Assembly (NCBI GenBank): GCA_000165425.1
Contig: CT868019.1
Span: 186,001 to 249,704 of the forward strand
Reading direction: 5' to 3'
Length of the DNA stretch: 63,704 bases
Source: Paramecium tetraurelia
Lineage: Eukaryota
This document shows, piece after piece, positions 37,503 to 54,893 of the stretch (position 1 is its first letter; every line of letters begins with the position of its first letter). Position numbers and translations under genes: made by a program. A model generated the notes under the pieces. The model saw nothing but the letters and a program-made list of their open reading frames with translations. It made no database searches and was not told the origin of the DNA.

Positions 37503-38502
37503 ATGTCTGAAAAAAAAATAAGAAAGAAGTACCATGACAAAATAGACTTCAAATTGGATCTGCCTGATACAAACAATAAAAAGGAGAAAGCAAGATAAAG
37601 TGCTAAAAACACCAGATAGAGAAAGAAGGCATACATTGAAAGTCTAGAGTAAAAGGTTTAAAAATAAATAAAAGTGTGAGGTGGCTTAATTGACAGCTCA
37701 ATTGAATTAAAATAAGAAAGTAGAATCCAAGCCCAGTCTAATGTAACTGATGGAGCAGTTTTTGATAGATAGAAAATAATAATTCGATATGTTGGAAAAA
37801 GCATATTAAGAAGAAAACGAAGCTAGTATAAAAGTTATTACCAATTCATTAAGATTTAAATATGGTATAGCTGGTCAAGGTCGTTTGATGGCCATAAATA
37901 AAGTATTTGAATTGCTTATAGATTTATTATTGCCTATGCATATGAGATACCTCTTTTGGGTGGCTTCTGAAGGTGATATACATTTTAAATATTGTAGATG
38001 TCGATATTTTCAAGAGAGAGAGACAGTCAGGTGAATTTTATTCGTTTGATATGAGTGATAGCTAAATAAATTGCTTAAATTCATTTGGATTGGATGACGA
38101 TCAAATTCTAAAAATATAAAATATGCAATAGACAATATAAGAATAGAGATCACATTACGACAACTTAATAATTGAGATATATAAAATACAACAATCAATA
38201 ATCAAAGAAAGTGAAAAGTGTCAAACCATAGTGGATGAAATATGGGATGTTTTGGAACCGAAATAGGCGGCAGGGTTACTAATTACATTAGATAAGGCAA
38301 GTTTATTTTATAAAATTAGAGTCGAATAGAATAATTCAGAGAGAAGAAAGTGTATCCTGATTGTGTGATTTTAACGCTTTAAAAGAGGGCGAAAGAGGAG
38401 ATCTAAAGATAATAACAATACTCTTATTTTGACATGAAAAAAGAATAAAAACAGGAGGAACTTGGATTGAATAATTATTTTTAAGCAGATTTTAATAATT
38501 GA
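37503..38502 (+). CDS. bZIP transcription factor with C-terminal helical (DOG1-like) region
   Basis: KARQSAKNTRQRKKAYIESLEQKVAQL; VLEPKQAAGLL; introns 37656-37680, 37973-37997 and 38297-38319 give 309 codons. Confidence 0.85.
38297..38319 (+). other. Probable non-canonical GC-AG intron (23 nt)
   Basis: AAG|gcaagtttattttataaaattag|AGT; its removal restores the frame to TGA 38500-38502. Confidence 0.65.
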
Positions 38503-50332: not shown

Positions 50333-51793
50333 ATGAAATATATTAAAAAACTAATCCTAACATTTGAGAGTAAGAGTTTAGAACAACAATATTAGTTGGA
50401 AAAAAAAAACTAAATCTAGCTACCTATTTTCATATTTACAATTACACTCTCTTTTATTTCAAACTTTGTTGTTCTTGGATTCCATTTTTTCAATTCAAAG
50501 ATTGAGACATGGTACTTGAATATTGCATTTAGCATTACAACTTTACTCCTATTCATATTTATTGTAATTATGAAAAAACATTAGTATCTATAAGATGCAA
50601 TTACTCTATCAAATCTCATTTTGGGTTTTTTAGAATTCAATGTAGACCCTGCAACATCCAATTATATTGAATTTTACTCTTATGGAAATACATTTATGCA
50701 GTTATAAGCAGTTTTATATATCGTGTCTAATTTTAATCACGCAACCCTTCAAGTCATTTTTCATTTTGTTTTGCGCATAGCCATAACAATACTTTTATCA
50801 AAACGGACAGATTACCTATTAATCTTTATAGGCTTAACAAGTAGTGTTATAATACTGGTGACAATATTCTACAAAGAAAAGAGCTCAAGAAAATTGTTTA
50901 TATAAAATTTGAAGGAAAATAATTGGGAAAATAACATTTCATTTATTATCCAAAAACCGTATTTTAGAATTAATTATTAATAAGAATAGTTACTATTTAA
51001 TTTAATAAAAGATAATAAAATTGAATAATTTCCAGGTTACGATAATTTTTATTGTGATGGATGTAATGTAAGAAAGCTATTAAGATGCTATTTTATCGAT
51101 AAAAACTTAACATTAGAAGAATATTTGAGAAATTAGAAAAATCATATTTCTTAAAAACTTATTTTAACTTTTAAAAAACGAAAATTTATACTAAAATTAT
51201 GTACTTTGGATATTCAATAAATTCAATACTTGTTTATTCTTGATGAAATCAGCATTTAATTTAAAAAAGAAGAAGACAAAAAAGTAAAATAAAATGATTT
51301 GATTGAATTTCTAAGATCAAATAAAGCATTTAGTTATTAGCATTTTTTCAATTGGGGAGCACAATCGCTATTATTTTTAAACTCTAAGATTATCAAAAAA
51401 ATAAATTTATAAGAGTTAATGATTTAGCTCCTCCATATATTTAAATAGCATGTATTTCATTAAATCTAAGTTAAAATTATTACTTATGATTAGAACACTT
51501 CTATTTATACATTCTATTATTAAATTAAAATATTTATGATGTAGCTTTTTGAAGTACTATCAATGATTCAAAGAAATAATAATCTATAAAACTAAATCAT
51601 TCTCAAAAGAAAGGGATGTGATATTTTAATTAAAATTACTAATTTAGATCTTGAAACTTTCGAGTAAATGTTTGAAAAAAATTTCTTTTTAAAAAATCTT
51701 TAAACCTTATTGCTCCATGAAATTGAGATATATGAAGGAATATAATTGCATTTTCGAAACTATCCGATAAAATCATTTGCATTTGATATTTGA
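50333..51793 (+). CDS. Multi-pass membrane protein of an expanded ciliate family
   Basis: LILTFESKSLEQQYQ then about 6 TM helices and a soluble C-terminal half; related to the gene at 1-477. Confidence 0.78.
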
Positions 51794-52734: not shown

Positions 52735-52748
52735 TGGCCACGTCAGCA
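52735..52748. promoter_or_regulatory. UPRE/G-box-like bZIP binding site (TGCTGACGTGGCCA on the minus strand)
   Basis: Isolated GC-rich TGGCCACGTCAGCA in an AT-rich spacer about 70 nt upstream of the bZIP ATG; contains TGACGTGG. Confidence 0.6.
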
Positions 52749-52815
52749 AAATTATATATTAGTACATATTCATTCATTTTTGTTAGAATATTAAGTTTAA
52801 CTAAAACTTAAATAA

Positions 52816-53839
52816 ATGAATTATATTGATTAAGATGATTGTAATATCCCTTTTGATTACGAGGATGATTTAATTTTCCCTCCCTATTATGAAAATGCAG
52901 AAACACCCGAACATAGCAAATCTACTGATTTAGAATAAAAGATCAAAAACGATAGAAAAGAAAGGATTTTGAAAAAAAGAATAGAAAAAAAACAAAAGAC
53001 CAATTCTGATTCTAGCAACAATCTCTCAAAAGAAGAGATAAGGAAACTAAGAAATAGAAATTCTGCCTAACAGTCAAGAGATAGAAAAAAATAATAGTTT
53101 GATTCTTTGATGTTAGAGAACCAAAATTATTAAATCTTACTAAAACAATAGGAAGAGTAAATTTAATTATTAATTGAAGAAAACAATTAGTAAAGATTAA
53201 AAATACAATACTTGGAAGAAATAAAGTATTTAAATAAAAATATAAATTAGTTAAAGTTACAAATGTATGAATTGTGCATCGGAAGTAAACCATGAGATGA
53301 TAAGAGTAAATGTCATTTCTAAATAAAAGATGATGAACTATGGATTATTATCTTTGTTGACAATCACTTGTATTTTGTCAATTGTCAATAATGAATACGA
53401 ATTCTCACCAAAGCCAATATCACTTCATCAGATTTCAGAATAAAAATATGAATTTTTAGCTCCTAAATAAAAATAATAGTTTTCAAATCCAACATCATTA
53501 ACACTCTACAACCATTTAACCATGCCTGAACATTAATATAATAATCAAACTCTATTTTATAATTGCACAGGCAATTAAAAGGAATGTCAATCATTTTTAA
53601 ATATCATCAAGGCTGAGAATTCTAATAATTTATATTTTGTAAATGATGCTTAAGAACACTTCCCTGCTGAACAAGATCATTATTTCGAGAAAGGAGAAAA
53701 TGTTTATTTAATCAAAATCAAACAAGATGATGAAGACAACTTTTAGATATTTAGGGCAAGATGCTAAATAACCGAAAGTAATAAGTTGTTTTTCGAAAGG
53801 GACGATTAAGATTCTTATAACAATAGTTTGTAATACTGA
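52816..53839 (+). CDS. Membrane-tethered bZIP transcription factor (XBP1/CREB3/ATF6-like)
   Basis: Acidic N-terminus; NLSKEEIRKLRNRNSAQQSRDRKK plus zipper; 25-nt intron 53226-53250; hydrophobic YGLLSLLTITCILSIV; about 150-aa C-terminal domain with NQT/NCT sequons; 333 codons after splicing. Confidence 0.85.
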
Positions 53840-53940
53840 TATTTACTCTTTCCATTTTTTTATTTCTATTAATTTTTTAATTTATGAAAATTAATTAAGA
53901 ATGCAACCTTAACCATTTTAAATATTTTCAATAAGAAGTA

Positions 53941-54893
53941 TCAGAATGAATTGACTAAATCAATAACTTAATCAGCATTAAGATTATTGTTTAATTCAGC
54001 TTTTGCCAAGGCGACAAAATTTTATCTAACTCTAATTATAAAGGTCTCTGAATAACTATCACTTTGTATAACTTCTCCTCTTGTATACAGAAAGAAGAGA
54101 GCATATAAGGCAAAAACACCACAGTCCTAGAATTAATAAATAGTTTACTGAAACTCCAGTTTGCCTTGGAGTATTTTTTTATATTTCCCATTTAAAATTT
54201 TTTGTGCATTTATATTTTATAATTCTTTCAATTCCAGCCATAATATCTGATTTGTATCCGTTTAGAGAATCCTAATATATAATTTTGCCCTCTTTAAAAT
54301 AGACTAATACGCTTATCCAATGAGAATTTCCTAAGTTAATTGGAAAATATGCATAATCATAATTAGCAATTGAACTTCCTTTTTAATAATCATTATTCAA
54401 AGTTTATTGAAAAAGGAGAGTTTCTAATTAAGAAATTTTGAAAATTCCCTCATCTACTTATTTAATTTCATTAATGCTTATGATTTCGAACATAAATTTT
54501 TTCTATTTAGTCTTCGCTTTATAAACTTCTTCCTTAGCTTATTGAATTGGTTAGTTCCTTTCTAAATTCGCTGAATTGGAAATGATATTTGATTAGCAAG
54601 TCTTCTTATCCACTATCTATTATTTGATTTTATTAATTTTTTCAAAGTCAATCAAATCGTTGGATAATTGGTTGGTTAGTTTTGGCATAAACTCAGCGAA
54701 GAAATAGCAATCAACTAAAAATATCTAATGATCTTGAATAATTTACATTTCTTCTATTGGAAAAATATTTATTAAAAACGTTTTAGAAAAATATCAAATG
54801 TGAACTTGTCAAAAATTCTTGATTCTCAAGGATTTTTATGAAATTTTAATCAATTGTTACTCCGTTTTTTCTATTACCAATTTATTTTAACAT
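53941..54893 (-). CDS. Ulp1/SENP family (peptidase C48) SUMO/ubiquitin-like protease
   Basis: YFPINLGNSHWISV...YQDSLNG...PRQTGVSDCGVF, i.e. His-Asp-Cys triad plus oxyanion Gln; two introns. Confidence 0.9.

What the first reader, a model, noticed from the sequence alone, without database searches (positions are those of the whole stretch)
52735..53839. Candidate ciliate ER-stress transducer: membrane-tethered XBP1/CREB3/ATF6-like bZIP
Seen: a bZIP (LSKEEIRKLRNRNSAQQSRDRKK) followed by one hydrophobic helix (about 53330-53386) and a C-terminal domain with N-glycosylation sequons and Cys residues, ending IFRARCQITES. Known: type II membrane bZIPs (ATF6, CREB3 family, plant bZIP17/28/60) are ER-stress sensors, and the basic region resembles XBP1 (RKLKNRVAAQTARDRKK) as I recall it. 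Inference: this is the sensor arm of a transcriptional unfolded-protein response in an alveolate, where I know of no characterised example. I see no canonical RxxL site-1 protease motif in the luminal part, so release may use another route.
Basis: partly seen in the sequence, partly recalled or inferred. Interest (0 to 1): 0.8.

Follow-up and report, generated by a model that had tools for sequence, protein, structure and literature searches.

The report
Paramecium membrane-tethered ER-gene bZIP regulator
This is an expressed Paramecium gene for a transcription factor with a predicted membrane anchor whose own promoter, like those of many ER chaperone and protein-import genes, carries a UPR-type DNA element, which points to an undescribed ciliate ER-control circuit in a genome where the usual releasing proteases were not found.

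Summary
The gene is real: genetic code 6, ATG 52816, a 25-nt intron (53226-53250) joining the bZIP frame to the TM frame, stop 53837-39, 332 aa, transcribed. It has an acidic N-terminus, a divergent bZIP (best solved bZIP match: chicken CREB3), one short conserved hydrophobic helix with type II charge bias, and a conserved three-cysteine C-terminal domain.

New evidence: the exact UPRE (TGACGTGG) lies about 70 nt upstream in 3 of 4 ohnologs. A related [AC]CACGT element precedes Sec61-alpha (8/8), GRP94 (5/5), GRP170 (2/2), ER HSP70 (5/8) and Derlin (2/5), but only 1/13 PDI-like genes. It occurs in 0/18 cytosolic/mitochondrial HSP70/90/110 promoters and in 1/29 chaperonin regions.

No S1P site was found, nor S8 or M50 proteases, nor IRE1 hairpins in its mRNA; IRE1-like, SPP and rhomboid genes exist. 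Best reading: an autoregulated ER-tethered activator of ER folding/import genes, released by a non-S1P/S2P route. Binding, localisation and stress induction are untested, and about 50 other bZIP matches, including a second TM-bZIP family, compete for the role.

The parts
52738..52745 (-). UPRE-identical element TGACGTGG (CCACGTCA on +), 70 nt before the ATG; likely autoregulatory or UPR-responsive site
   Evidence: same 8-mer at the same distance in 3 of 4 ohnologs; 115 copies genome-wide; UPRE and plant pUPRE definitions from PMC3645738 passages
52810..52815 (+). probable transcript 5' end and very short 5' UTR
   Evidence: 16 molecules of run X21 end at 52810; all first mates lie on -, so the RNA is probably +; contig X3 however reaches to 52690
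52816..53225 (+). exon 1 (code 6): acidic N-terminus, basic patch, bZIP
52816..52935 (+). acidic N-terminal 40 aa (net charge -11), activation-domain-like (inference)
   Evidence: net -6 to -11 in all 17 rows
52954..52998 (+). conserved basic patch, NLS-like (inference)
   Evidence: residues 41-61, identity 0.91
53026..53091 (+). bZIP basic region (N-x7-R)
   Evidence: identity 0.94
53092..53225 (+). zipper / coiled coil, irregular leucine repeat
   Evidence: one helix 72-144 with block pLDDT 74-94 over residues 81-140
53226..53250 (+). 25-nt GT..AG intron that puts bZIP and helix in frame
   Evidence: 25 letters left out in X3; 25, 26, 24, 24 nt in the four ohnologs
53251..53839 (+). exon 2: linker, helix, luminal domain, stop
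53330..53389 (+). single short predicted TM helix (residues 164-183), type II charge bias, rich in G/S/T/C
   Evidence: KD19 1.83 in the window protein and 1.83-2.15 in 12 homologs, second-best window 0.52 or less; net +2 before and -1 after; kept in the P. bursaria homolog
53525..53776 (+). conserved luminal core (residues 229-312), Cys242/249/308, sequons at 235 and 241; predicted helix plus beta strands at low confidence
   Evidence: identity 0.86; 3 Cys in all 17 rows

Best explanation
A type II membrane-tethered bZIP transcription factor of Paramecium that works like ATF6/CREB3/bZIP28. Shown: gene structure, expression, domain order, conservation across the genus, the cis-element in its own promoter and in ER-gene promoters. 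Inferred: it is inserted in the ER with the bZIP in the cytosol and a glycosylated, disulfide-bonded sensor domain in the lumen. When ER load rises, the N-terminal ~165 aa are freed, enter the macronucleus and bind [AC]CACGT elements of Sec61-alpha, BiP, GRP94, GRP170, Derlin, PDIA6-like, SPP and its own genes (positive feedback). Because S1P and S2P were not found and the mRNA has no IRE1 site, release is most likely by another intramembrane protease. SPP (A22B) is my first guess (about 0.35 of the release routes), then rhomboid, then ubiquitin/proteasome-dependent processing. Step odds: membrane anchor 0.9; acts on the CACGT gene set 0.65; activation triggered by ER stress or load 0.55.
For: Helix conserved and hydrophobic in 12 aurelia homologs and P. 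bursaria. Best solved bZIP match is 6IAK, chicken CREB3, an ER membrane-bound factor. Exact UPRE in 3 of 4 ohnolog promoters although the flanks have diverged. Element within 150 nt of the ATG in ER HSP70 5/8, GRP170 2/2, GRP94 5/5 readable, Sec61-alpha 8/8 intact copies and Derlin 2/5, against 0/18 cytosolic/mitochondrial HSP70/90/110, 1/29 chaperonin regions (that hit lies downstream of the likely ATG) and 2/97 heuristic background promoters. A decayed ninth Sec61-alpha copy keeps the flanks but has lost the element. Of 99 exact-UPRE places classified, the clearly promoter-like ones were this gene, two PDIA6-like ohnologs and two unassigned genes. No S8, M50 or MBTPS1_4th match; the table of PMC3341644 lists 0 S8 for P. 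tetraurelia and has no M50 row. SPP-family 9 matches, rhomboid 9 matches; the two SPP-proper ohnologs carry the element just before the ATG. bZIP-plus-helix proteins are common among the distant hits.
Against: No binding, localisation or stress data. Only 1 of 13 Thioredoxin_6 PDI-like genes, 0 of 3 divergent ER HSP70s and 2 of 5 Derlins carry it; one ohnolog of this gene lacks it. Counts include recent duplicates; at clade level one test gave only p 0.048. The relaxed motif was defined after seeing the HSP70/HSP90/PDI data. The helix is short (about 15-19 residues) and only moderately hydrophobic; no dedicated topology predictor was available. Pfam bZIP score is below cut-off. A divergent M50-type protease could be missed: Plasmodium has an S2P and an M50B-like gene.
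Confidence: 0.55

Rival explanations
1. Same tethered activator and same target genes, but it is a secretory-capacity regulator of the CREB3 type, triggered by physiological demand (for example regrowth of secretory granules) and not a sensor of unfolded protein.
For: Best solved match is CREB3. The strongest target class is the translocon (Sec61-alpha 8/8) while PDI-like genes mostly lack the element (1/13). PMC3116243 passages say CREB3 activators are not limited to ER stress and list the box-B element TACACGTAATC, which some of the Paramecium sites resemble.
Against: BiP, GRP94, GRP170 and Derlin are core UPR/ERAD genes, and the gene's own element is the exact UPRE. The luminal core is strongly conserved, as a sensor would be.
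Confidence: 0.18
2. The gene is a downstream target or feedback modulator; another bZIP (the second TM family or a soluble one) is the activator of the CACGT gene set.
For: An element in its promoter shows it is regulated, not that it regulates. 60 bZIP matches and a second TM-bZIP family with a stronger Pfam score exist.
Against: Acidic N-terminus in all rows. The three family-2 genes have no ACGT within 200 nt of their ATG and no comparable conserved luminal domain was seen.
Confidence: 0.13
3. bZIP60/XBP1-like: IRE1 cuts the mRNA between zipper and helix, shifting the frame and removing the anchor.
For: Two TM-kinase-KEN genes exist; one keeps an RNTKNHY segment in the KEN domain. A shift to either other frame after codon 141 would stop within 2-46 codons.
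Against: No CNGNNG loop with a stem over 2 bp in any of the 4 mRNAs; folding z-scores -0.69 to +1.37 and consensus energy -3 kcal/mol; the linker is the least conserved region; a conserved folded luminal domain is not expected. No joints in 3 raw-read runs, but depth there was low and stress state unknown.
Confidence: 0.06
4. Regulated retention of the 25-nt intron makes a soluble, anchor-less bZIP.
For: Retention gives 159-aa and 143-aa helix-less products in the window gene and its closest ohnolog.
Against: In the other two ohnologs the intron is 24 nt without a stop, so retention keeps the helix; the tails are not conserved; the only contig laid is spliced.
Confidence: 0.04
5. The hydrophobic segment is not a membrane anchor and the protein is an ordinary nuclear bZIP with a C-terminal domain.
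For: Short helix with polar residues; AlphaFold gives it low confidence.
Against: KD19 1.83-2.15, the only such segment, with type II charge bias, followed by conserved sequons and Cys; same layout in many distant hits.
Confidence: 0.04

Closest known systems
CREB3/OASIS subfamily (animals)
   Same: Type II layout; the bZIP's best solved match is chicken CREB3 (6IAK, E 0.0015); CREB3 factors are reported to bind UPRE TGACGTGG and box-B (PMC3116243 passages).
   Different: No luminal S1P motif; no S1P or S2P found in the genome; match confined to the bZIP; orthology not tested.
ATF6 (animals) and bZIP17/28 (plants)
   Same: Cytosolic bZIP, one TM helix, luminal domain; target promoters carry UPRE/pUPRE-like CCACGTCA cores (PMC3645738 passages).
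   Different: These have a canonical S1P site and are cut by S1P/S2P; here neither site nor enzymes were found. The protein is only 332 aa with a 149-aa luminal part; luminal homology could not be shown.
XBP1/HAC1/bZIP60 (IRE1-spliced)
   Same: Same class of DNA element; an IRE1-like kinase-KEN gene is present; bZIP60's unspliced form is also membrane-bound (recalled).
   Different: No IRE1-type hairpins or conserved RNA structure; the only intron is a GT..AG one whose removal creates, not removes, the anchor.
Membrane-bound factors released without S1P/S2P (plant NTL NAC factors by a presumed rhomboid; ubiquitin/proteasome-dependent processing)
   Same: Precedent for other release routes (PMC9237531 passages).
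   Different: Different DNA-binding families; no evidence here for which route applies.

Membership tests
ATF6/CREB3/bZIP28 RIP-activated bZIPs | N-terminal bZIP | tested here: met
   N-x7-R basic region conserved; Atlas 0.93; PDB best hit CREB3; Pfam below cut-off
ATF6/CREB3/bZIP28 RIP-activated bZIPs | single TM helix after the bZIP, type II | tested here: met
   hydropathy and charge only; prediction, not experiment
ATF6/CREB3/bZIP28 RIP-activated bZIPs | luminal S1P site Rx[LIT][KL] / RxxL | tested here: not met
   0 of 17 rows, two of which are probably the same genes twice; motif as given in PMC9237531
ATF6/CREB3/bZIP28 RIP-activated bZIPs | S1P and S2P present in the organism | tested here: not met
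   0 candidates for PF00082, PF02163, PF23090 (the PF23090 control rang nowhere); published table 0 S8, no M50 row; very divergent copies could be missed
ATF6/CREB3/bZIP28 RIP-activated bZIPs | luminal domain homologous to ATF6 or bZIP28 | tested here: inconclusive
   no Pfam hit; Atlas 0.86 to unnamed clusters, a lead only; models pLDDT 51; best Z 4.2
ATF6/CREB3/bZIP28 RIP-activated bZIPs | binds UPRE/ERSE-type elements of ER genes | tested here: inconclusive
   elements present and enriched; binding not tested; other bZIPs exist
ATF6/CREB3/bZIP28 RIP-activated bZIPs | ER residence and stress-induced release to the nucleus | not testable with these tools
   needs tagging and stress experiments
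ATF6/CREB3/bZIP28 RIP-activated bZIPs | orthology by phylogeny | not tested
   no ATF6, CREB3 or bZIP28 sequence was obtained as a usable record
XBP1/HAC1/bZIP60 | IRE1 kinase-RNase in the genome | tested here: met
   two TM-kinase-KEN genes; both read HHG where the kinase catalytic HRD is expected (recalled motif)
XBP1/HAC1/bZIP60 | twin stem-loops with CNG-CNG loops after the bZIP | tested here: not met
   0 of 4 mRNAs; consensus recalled
XBP1/HAC1/bZIP60 | unconventional joint in RNA under stress | tested here: inconclusive
   no joints in 3 runs of 58-nt reads, depth 0-6.7 over 53152-53289, conditions unknown

The most novel reading that the evidence does not exclude
Ciliates run an ATF6-like UPR arm without S1P or S2P: this luminal domain senses ER stress and signal peptide peptidase frees the bZIP in the ER, driving a feed-forward set of genes (translocon, chaperones, Derlin, SPP and the factor itself) through the same UPRE core used in animals and plants. 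With the many bZIP-plus-helix proteins among the unnamed distant hits, this would make the tethered-bZIP/UPRE module pan-eukaryotic and older than its S1P/S2P coupling, or able to survive its loss.
Probability: 0.22. Interest if true: 0.87.

Novelty: new variant of a known kind. Interest (0 to 1): 0.68.

Why it matters
My literature searches (open-licence papers only) found no described UPR transcription factor or UPR element in a ciliate. Passages read state that ATF6 was not found in Dictyostelium (PMC6025073) and that Apicomplexa have no ATF6 homologue and Plasmodium apparently no bZIP (PMC5249076). This finding supplies a candidate factor, a candidate cis-element with a target list, and candidate proteases in an organism open to RNAi and tagging. 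That makes two questions directly testable: whether the tethered-bZIP arm of the UPR exists outside animals and plants, and how such a factor is released where S1P and S2P are missing. The CACGT element is also a concrete promoter motif for Paramecium.

Tried and rejected
Luminal fold: full-length model pLDDT 51 with no Foldseek match at E 0.001; domain-only model pLDDT 51.5, best Z 4.2, none at Z 5; no conclusion on the fold. Atlas search with helix plus lumen gave only 0.84-0.86 unnamed clusters. Named homologs were found only in Paramecium; a search for longer forms found none (weak evidence); a metagenome scan matched 444 stretches and confirmed none. No named Tetrahymena ortholog was found; the Atlas lists a 74-member, mostly ciliate bZIP cluster at 0.93 that I could not open. 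The 20 or so distant hits align only over bZIP and helix, apart from fragments P0018 and P0023, so they are not shown to be orthologs. IRE1 splice site: rejected. Intron retention as switch: not conserved. The linker CxxC (142/145) is not conserved in all copies. The second TGACGTGG in the window (6330) lies in GC-richer, coding-like sequence. Most exact-UPRE places are in coding-like sequence: 11 of 99 had low-GC flanks; likewise 8 of 61 for ACACGT places. No calreticulin-family match (control rang nowhere). No run holding the stretch was on record as RNA. A CTGCAG-type hairpin in two family-2 genes lies after the helix and is not kept in the third, so it was not taken as a splice site. Earlier findings of the scan: nothing returned. 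The main text of PMC1557398 gave no relevant passage and three of its supplements were unreadable. Rhomboid and proteasome promoters were not examined.

Full report
1. Gene and organism. The window is AT-rich (GC 22-33%) and reads with code 6. It lies in a 72-Mb, 697-contig genome; named homologs are Paramecium aurelia-group proteins, and the genome is evidently P. tetraurelia (inference from those names and a matching contig length). The bZIP is in the frame starting at ATG 52816 and the hydrophobic helix in another frame. A 25-nt GT..AG intron at 53226-53250 joins them into 332 aa, the length of the 96%-identical P. octaurelia protein. Contig X3 (RNA by guess) lacks exactly these 25 letters. 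Three stranded RNA runs laid 96, 486 and 103 reads, all with first mates on the minus strand, from about 52810 to 53841. Reads near the intron carry letters of the closest ohnolog, so the raw reads do not themselves show this copy's junction.

2. Anatomy. Over 12 aurelia homologs, mean column identity is 0.74 in the acidic N-terminus, 0.91 in a basic patch, 0.94 in the basic region, 0.75 in the zipper, 0.65 in the linker, 0.91 around the helix and 0.86 in the luminal core. The bZIP scores below the Pfam cut-off, but AlphaFold models a long helix there, the Atlas gives 0.93 to two bZIP clusters, one mostly ciliate, and the best of 27 PDB matches is 6IAK (E 0.0015), chicken CREB3 according to the listing and abstract start of PMC6423718. 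The helix is the only hydrophobic segment (KD19 1.83-2.15; next best 0.52 or less), with net +2 before and -1 after it, consistent with type II. It is short, and no dedicated topology predictor was run. All 17 rows examined (4 genome copies, 12 aurelia proteins, P. bursaria; two probably counted twice) have 3 luminal Cys, 3-5 sequons and no S1P motif. The P. bursaria homolog (38%) keeps helix and luminal core. The luminal fold could not be determined. From recall, the order of its predicted helix and strands resembles the conserved C-terminal luminal region of ATF6; this is an untested lead.

3. The promoter element. An exact TGACGTGG lies at 52738-52745 on the minus strand. This is the mammalian UPRE, and its reverse complement is the core of plant pUPRE (passages of PMC3645738). 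It sits 76-79 nt before the ATG (position of the ACGT core) in 3 of 4 ohnologs, including one from an older duplication whose flanks have diverged. The genome holds 115 copies. I classified 99 of the 100 listed places (the other is an ohnolog already held); 11 had low-GC flanks, and the five clearly promoter-like ones were this gene, two PDIA6-like ohnologs at -60 and two unassigned genes.

4. The wider gene set. Counting [AC]CACGT on either strand within 150 nt of the ATG: signal-peptide HSP70s 5 of 8, GRP170-like 2 of 2, GRP94 5 of 5 readable (two more copies lie at contig ends and were left out); Thioredoxin_6 PDI-like 1 of 13; cytosolic and mitochondrial HSP70, HSP110 and HSP90 0 of 18. 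The relaxed motif was fixed after seeing these. Tested afterwards: Sec61-alpha 8 of 8 intact copies, Derlin 2 of 5, A22B proteases 2 of 8 loci, the two SPP-proper ohnologs, and as control chaperonins 1 of 29 in 350-nt regions, that one downstream of the likely ATG. A ninth, decayed Sec61-alpha copy was left out of the count; it keeps the flanking bases but has lost the core. A heuristic background gave 0 of 97 on the sense strand and 2 of 97 on either strand, both signal-peptide genes, one of them the PDI-like gene above. One search gave 24 of 42 against 1 of 47 (Fisher p 4e-9); one GRP94 in that count was found through the motif, so the fair count is 23 of 41. Ohnologs are not independent; a clade-level test on the first families gave p 0.048, before Sec61-alpha, Derlin and SPP were added.

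5. Release route. No match for subtilases (PF00082), S2P (PF02163) or an S1P-specific domain (PF23090) was found, while other eukaryotic families rang in the same genome. Supplementary file 7 of PMC3341644, read whole, lists 0 S8, 8 A22 and 5 S54 for P. tetraurelia and has no M50 row; files 5 and 13-16 were not searched. Divergent M50 proteins could be missed (PMC5249076 passages). Two IRE1-like TM-kinase-KEN genes exist, both lacking the expected catalytic Asp, but none of the four mRNAs has an IRE1-type hairpin or conserved structure between zipper and helix. Intron retention would remove the anchor in only 2 of 4 copies. SPP (9 matches) and rhomboids (9 matches) are present. I rank SPP first because the helix is type II, short and rich in small polar residues (SPP's preference for such helices is recalled; passages of PMC9237531 support the role of broken helices) and because the SPP ohnologs carry the element; rice SPPL genes are likewise bZIP-induced under ER stress (listing and passages of PMC13434819). 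This step is inference only.

6. Competitors. The genome has 60 bZIP_1 matches, 50 over cut-off, and this gene is not among them. Of the 30 fetched, three form a second family with a helix after the zipper; their promoters have no ACGT within 200 nt. The other 30 were not examined. So the element cannot be assigned to this protein from sequence alone.

7. Spread. A profile search of 1.84 billion representatives gave 22 hits. Ten full or near-full unnamed proteins examined have a bZIP followed by one helix, and three of them an S1P-like motif within 60 residues, but they align only over bZIP and helix. They show that the layout is common, not that they are orthologs.

8. Verdict. It works like ATF6/CREB3/bZIP28 by layout and by its likely targets, but fails two defining features (S1P site; S1P/S2P in the genome) and is not filed as a member. 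It also fails the IRE1-hairpin test for XBP1/bZIP60. Seven searches of open-licence literature showed no described ciliate case; subscription papers were not searched, and passages of PMC6025073 and PMC3116243 give the context. New variant of a known kind; best explanation 0.55; interest 0.68.

Noticed in passing
L251, L261, L268 (G000 C291, C402, C5): Second family of bZIPs with a hydrophobic helix after the zipper and a short C-terminal tail; L261 and L268 have a 7-bp hairpin with a CTGC(A/T)GT loop near the 3' end, not kept in L251.
   Followed up: partly
L035 and L170 (G000 C280, C80): Two IRE1-like TM-kinase-KEN genes whose kinase reads HHG in place of HRD, so probably pseudokinases; no CACGT seen in the loci checked. 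A SUMO-like gene lies just upstream of the C280 copy (L169; recognised from recall).
   Followed up: partly
L286 (G000 C43): Decayed Sec61-alpha copy with broken frame whose promoter has lost the CACGT core while keeping the flanks.
   Followed up: partly
L044, L045, L062, L270, L271, L232, L234: In one BiP clade, one Derlin clade and SPP the element lies within about 15 nt of the ATG, at or inside the expected transcript start, unlike the -55 to -80 position in the other genes.
   Followed up: no
L223:1243-1638 +: Signal-peptide thioredoxin-like gene with CACACGTCA 34 nt before the ATG; the most AT-rich flank among 61 ACACGT places.
   Followed up: no
L161:891-1139 - and L018:1051-1455 -: Two unassigned genes with an exact promoter UPRE; L161 looks like a multi-pass membrane protein; no clear Pfam family.
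   Followed up: partly
window 37578-37664 +: Another bZIP-like basic region in the same window (weak PF00170 match), with a counterpart on the ohnologous contig C680.
   Followed up: no
window 54059-54748 -: Ulp1-type (Peptidase_C48) protease gene converging on the 3' end of the finding.
   Followed up: no
window 50333-51793 +: 486-aa ORF with several N-terminal hydrophobic segments and no Pfam family, upstream neighbour.
   Followed up: no
L003 and L004: The two more distant ohnologs have 24-nt stop-less introns at the shared position, so retention would add 8 residues in frame.
   Followed up: partly
G000, whole genome: No calreticulin-family and no subtilase (S8) match at all; CG-containing words are about four to five times rarer than their reversed controls.
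   Followed up: partly
P0017, P0022, P0024, P0026, P0031: A coherent unnamed family of about 335-aa bZIP-helix proteins with their own Cys-bearing C-terminal domain, no S1P motif near the helix in the four tested.
   Followed up: no
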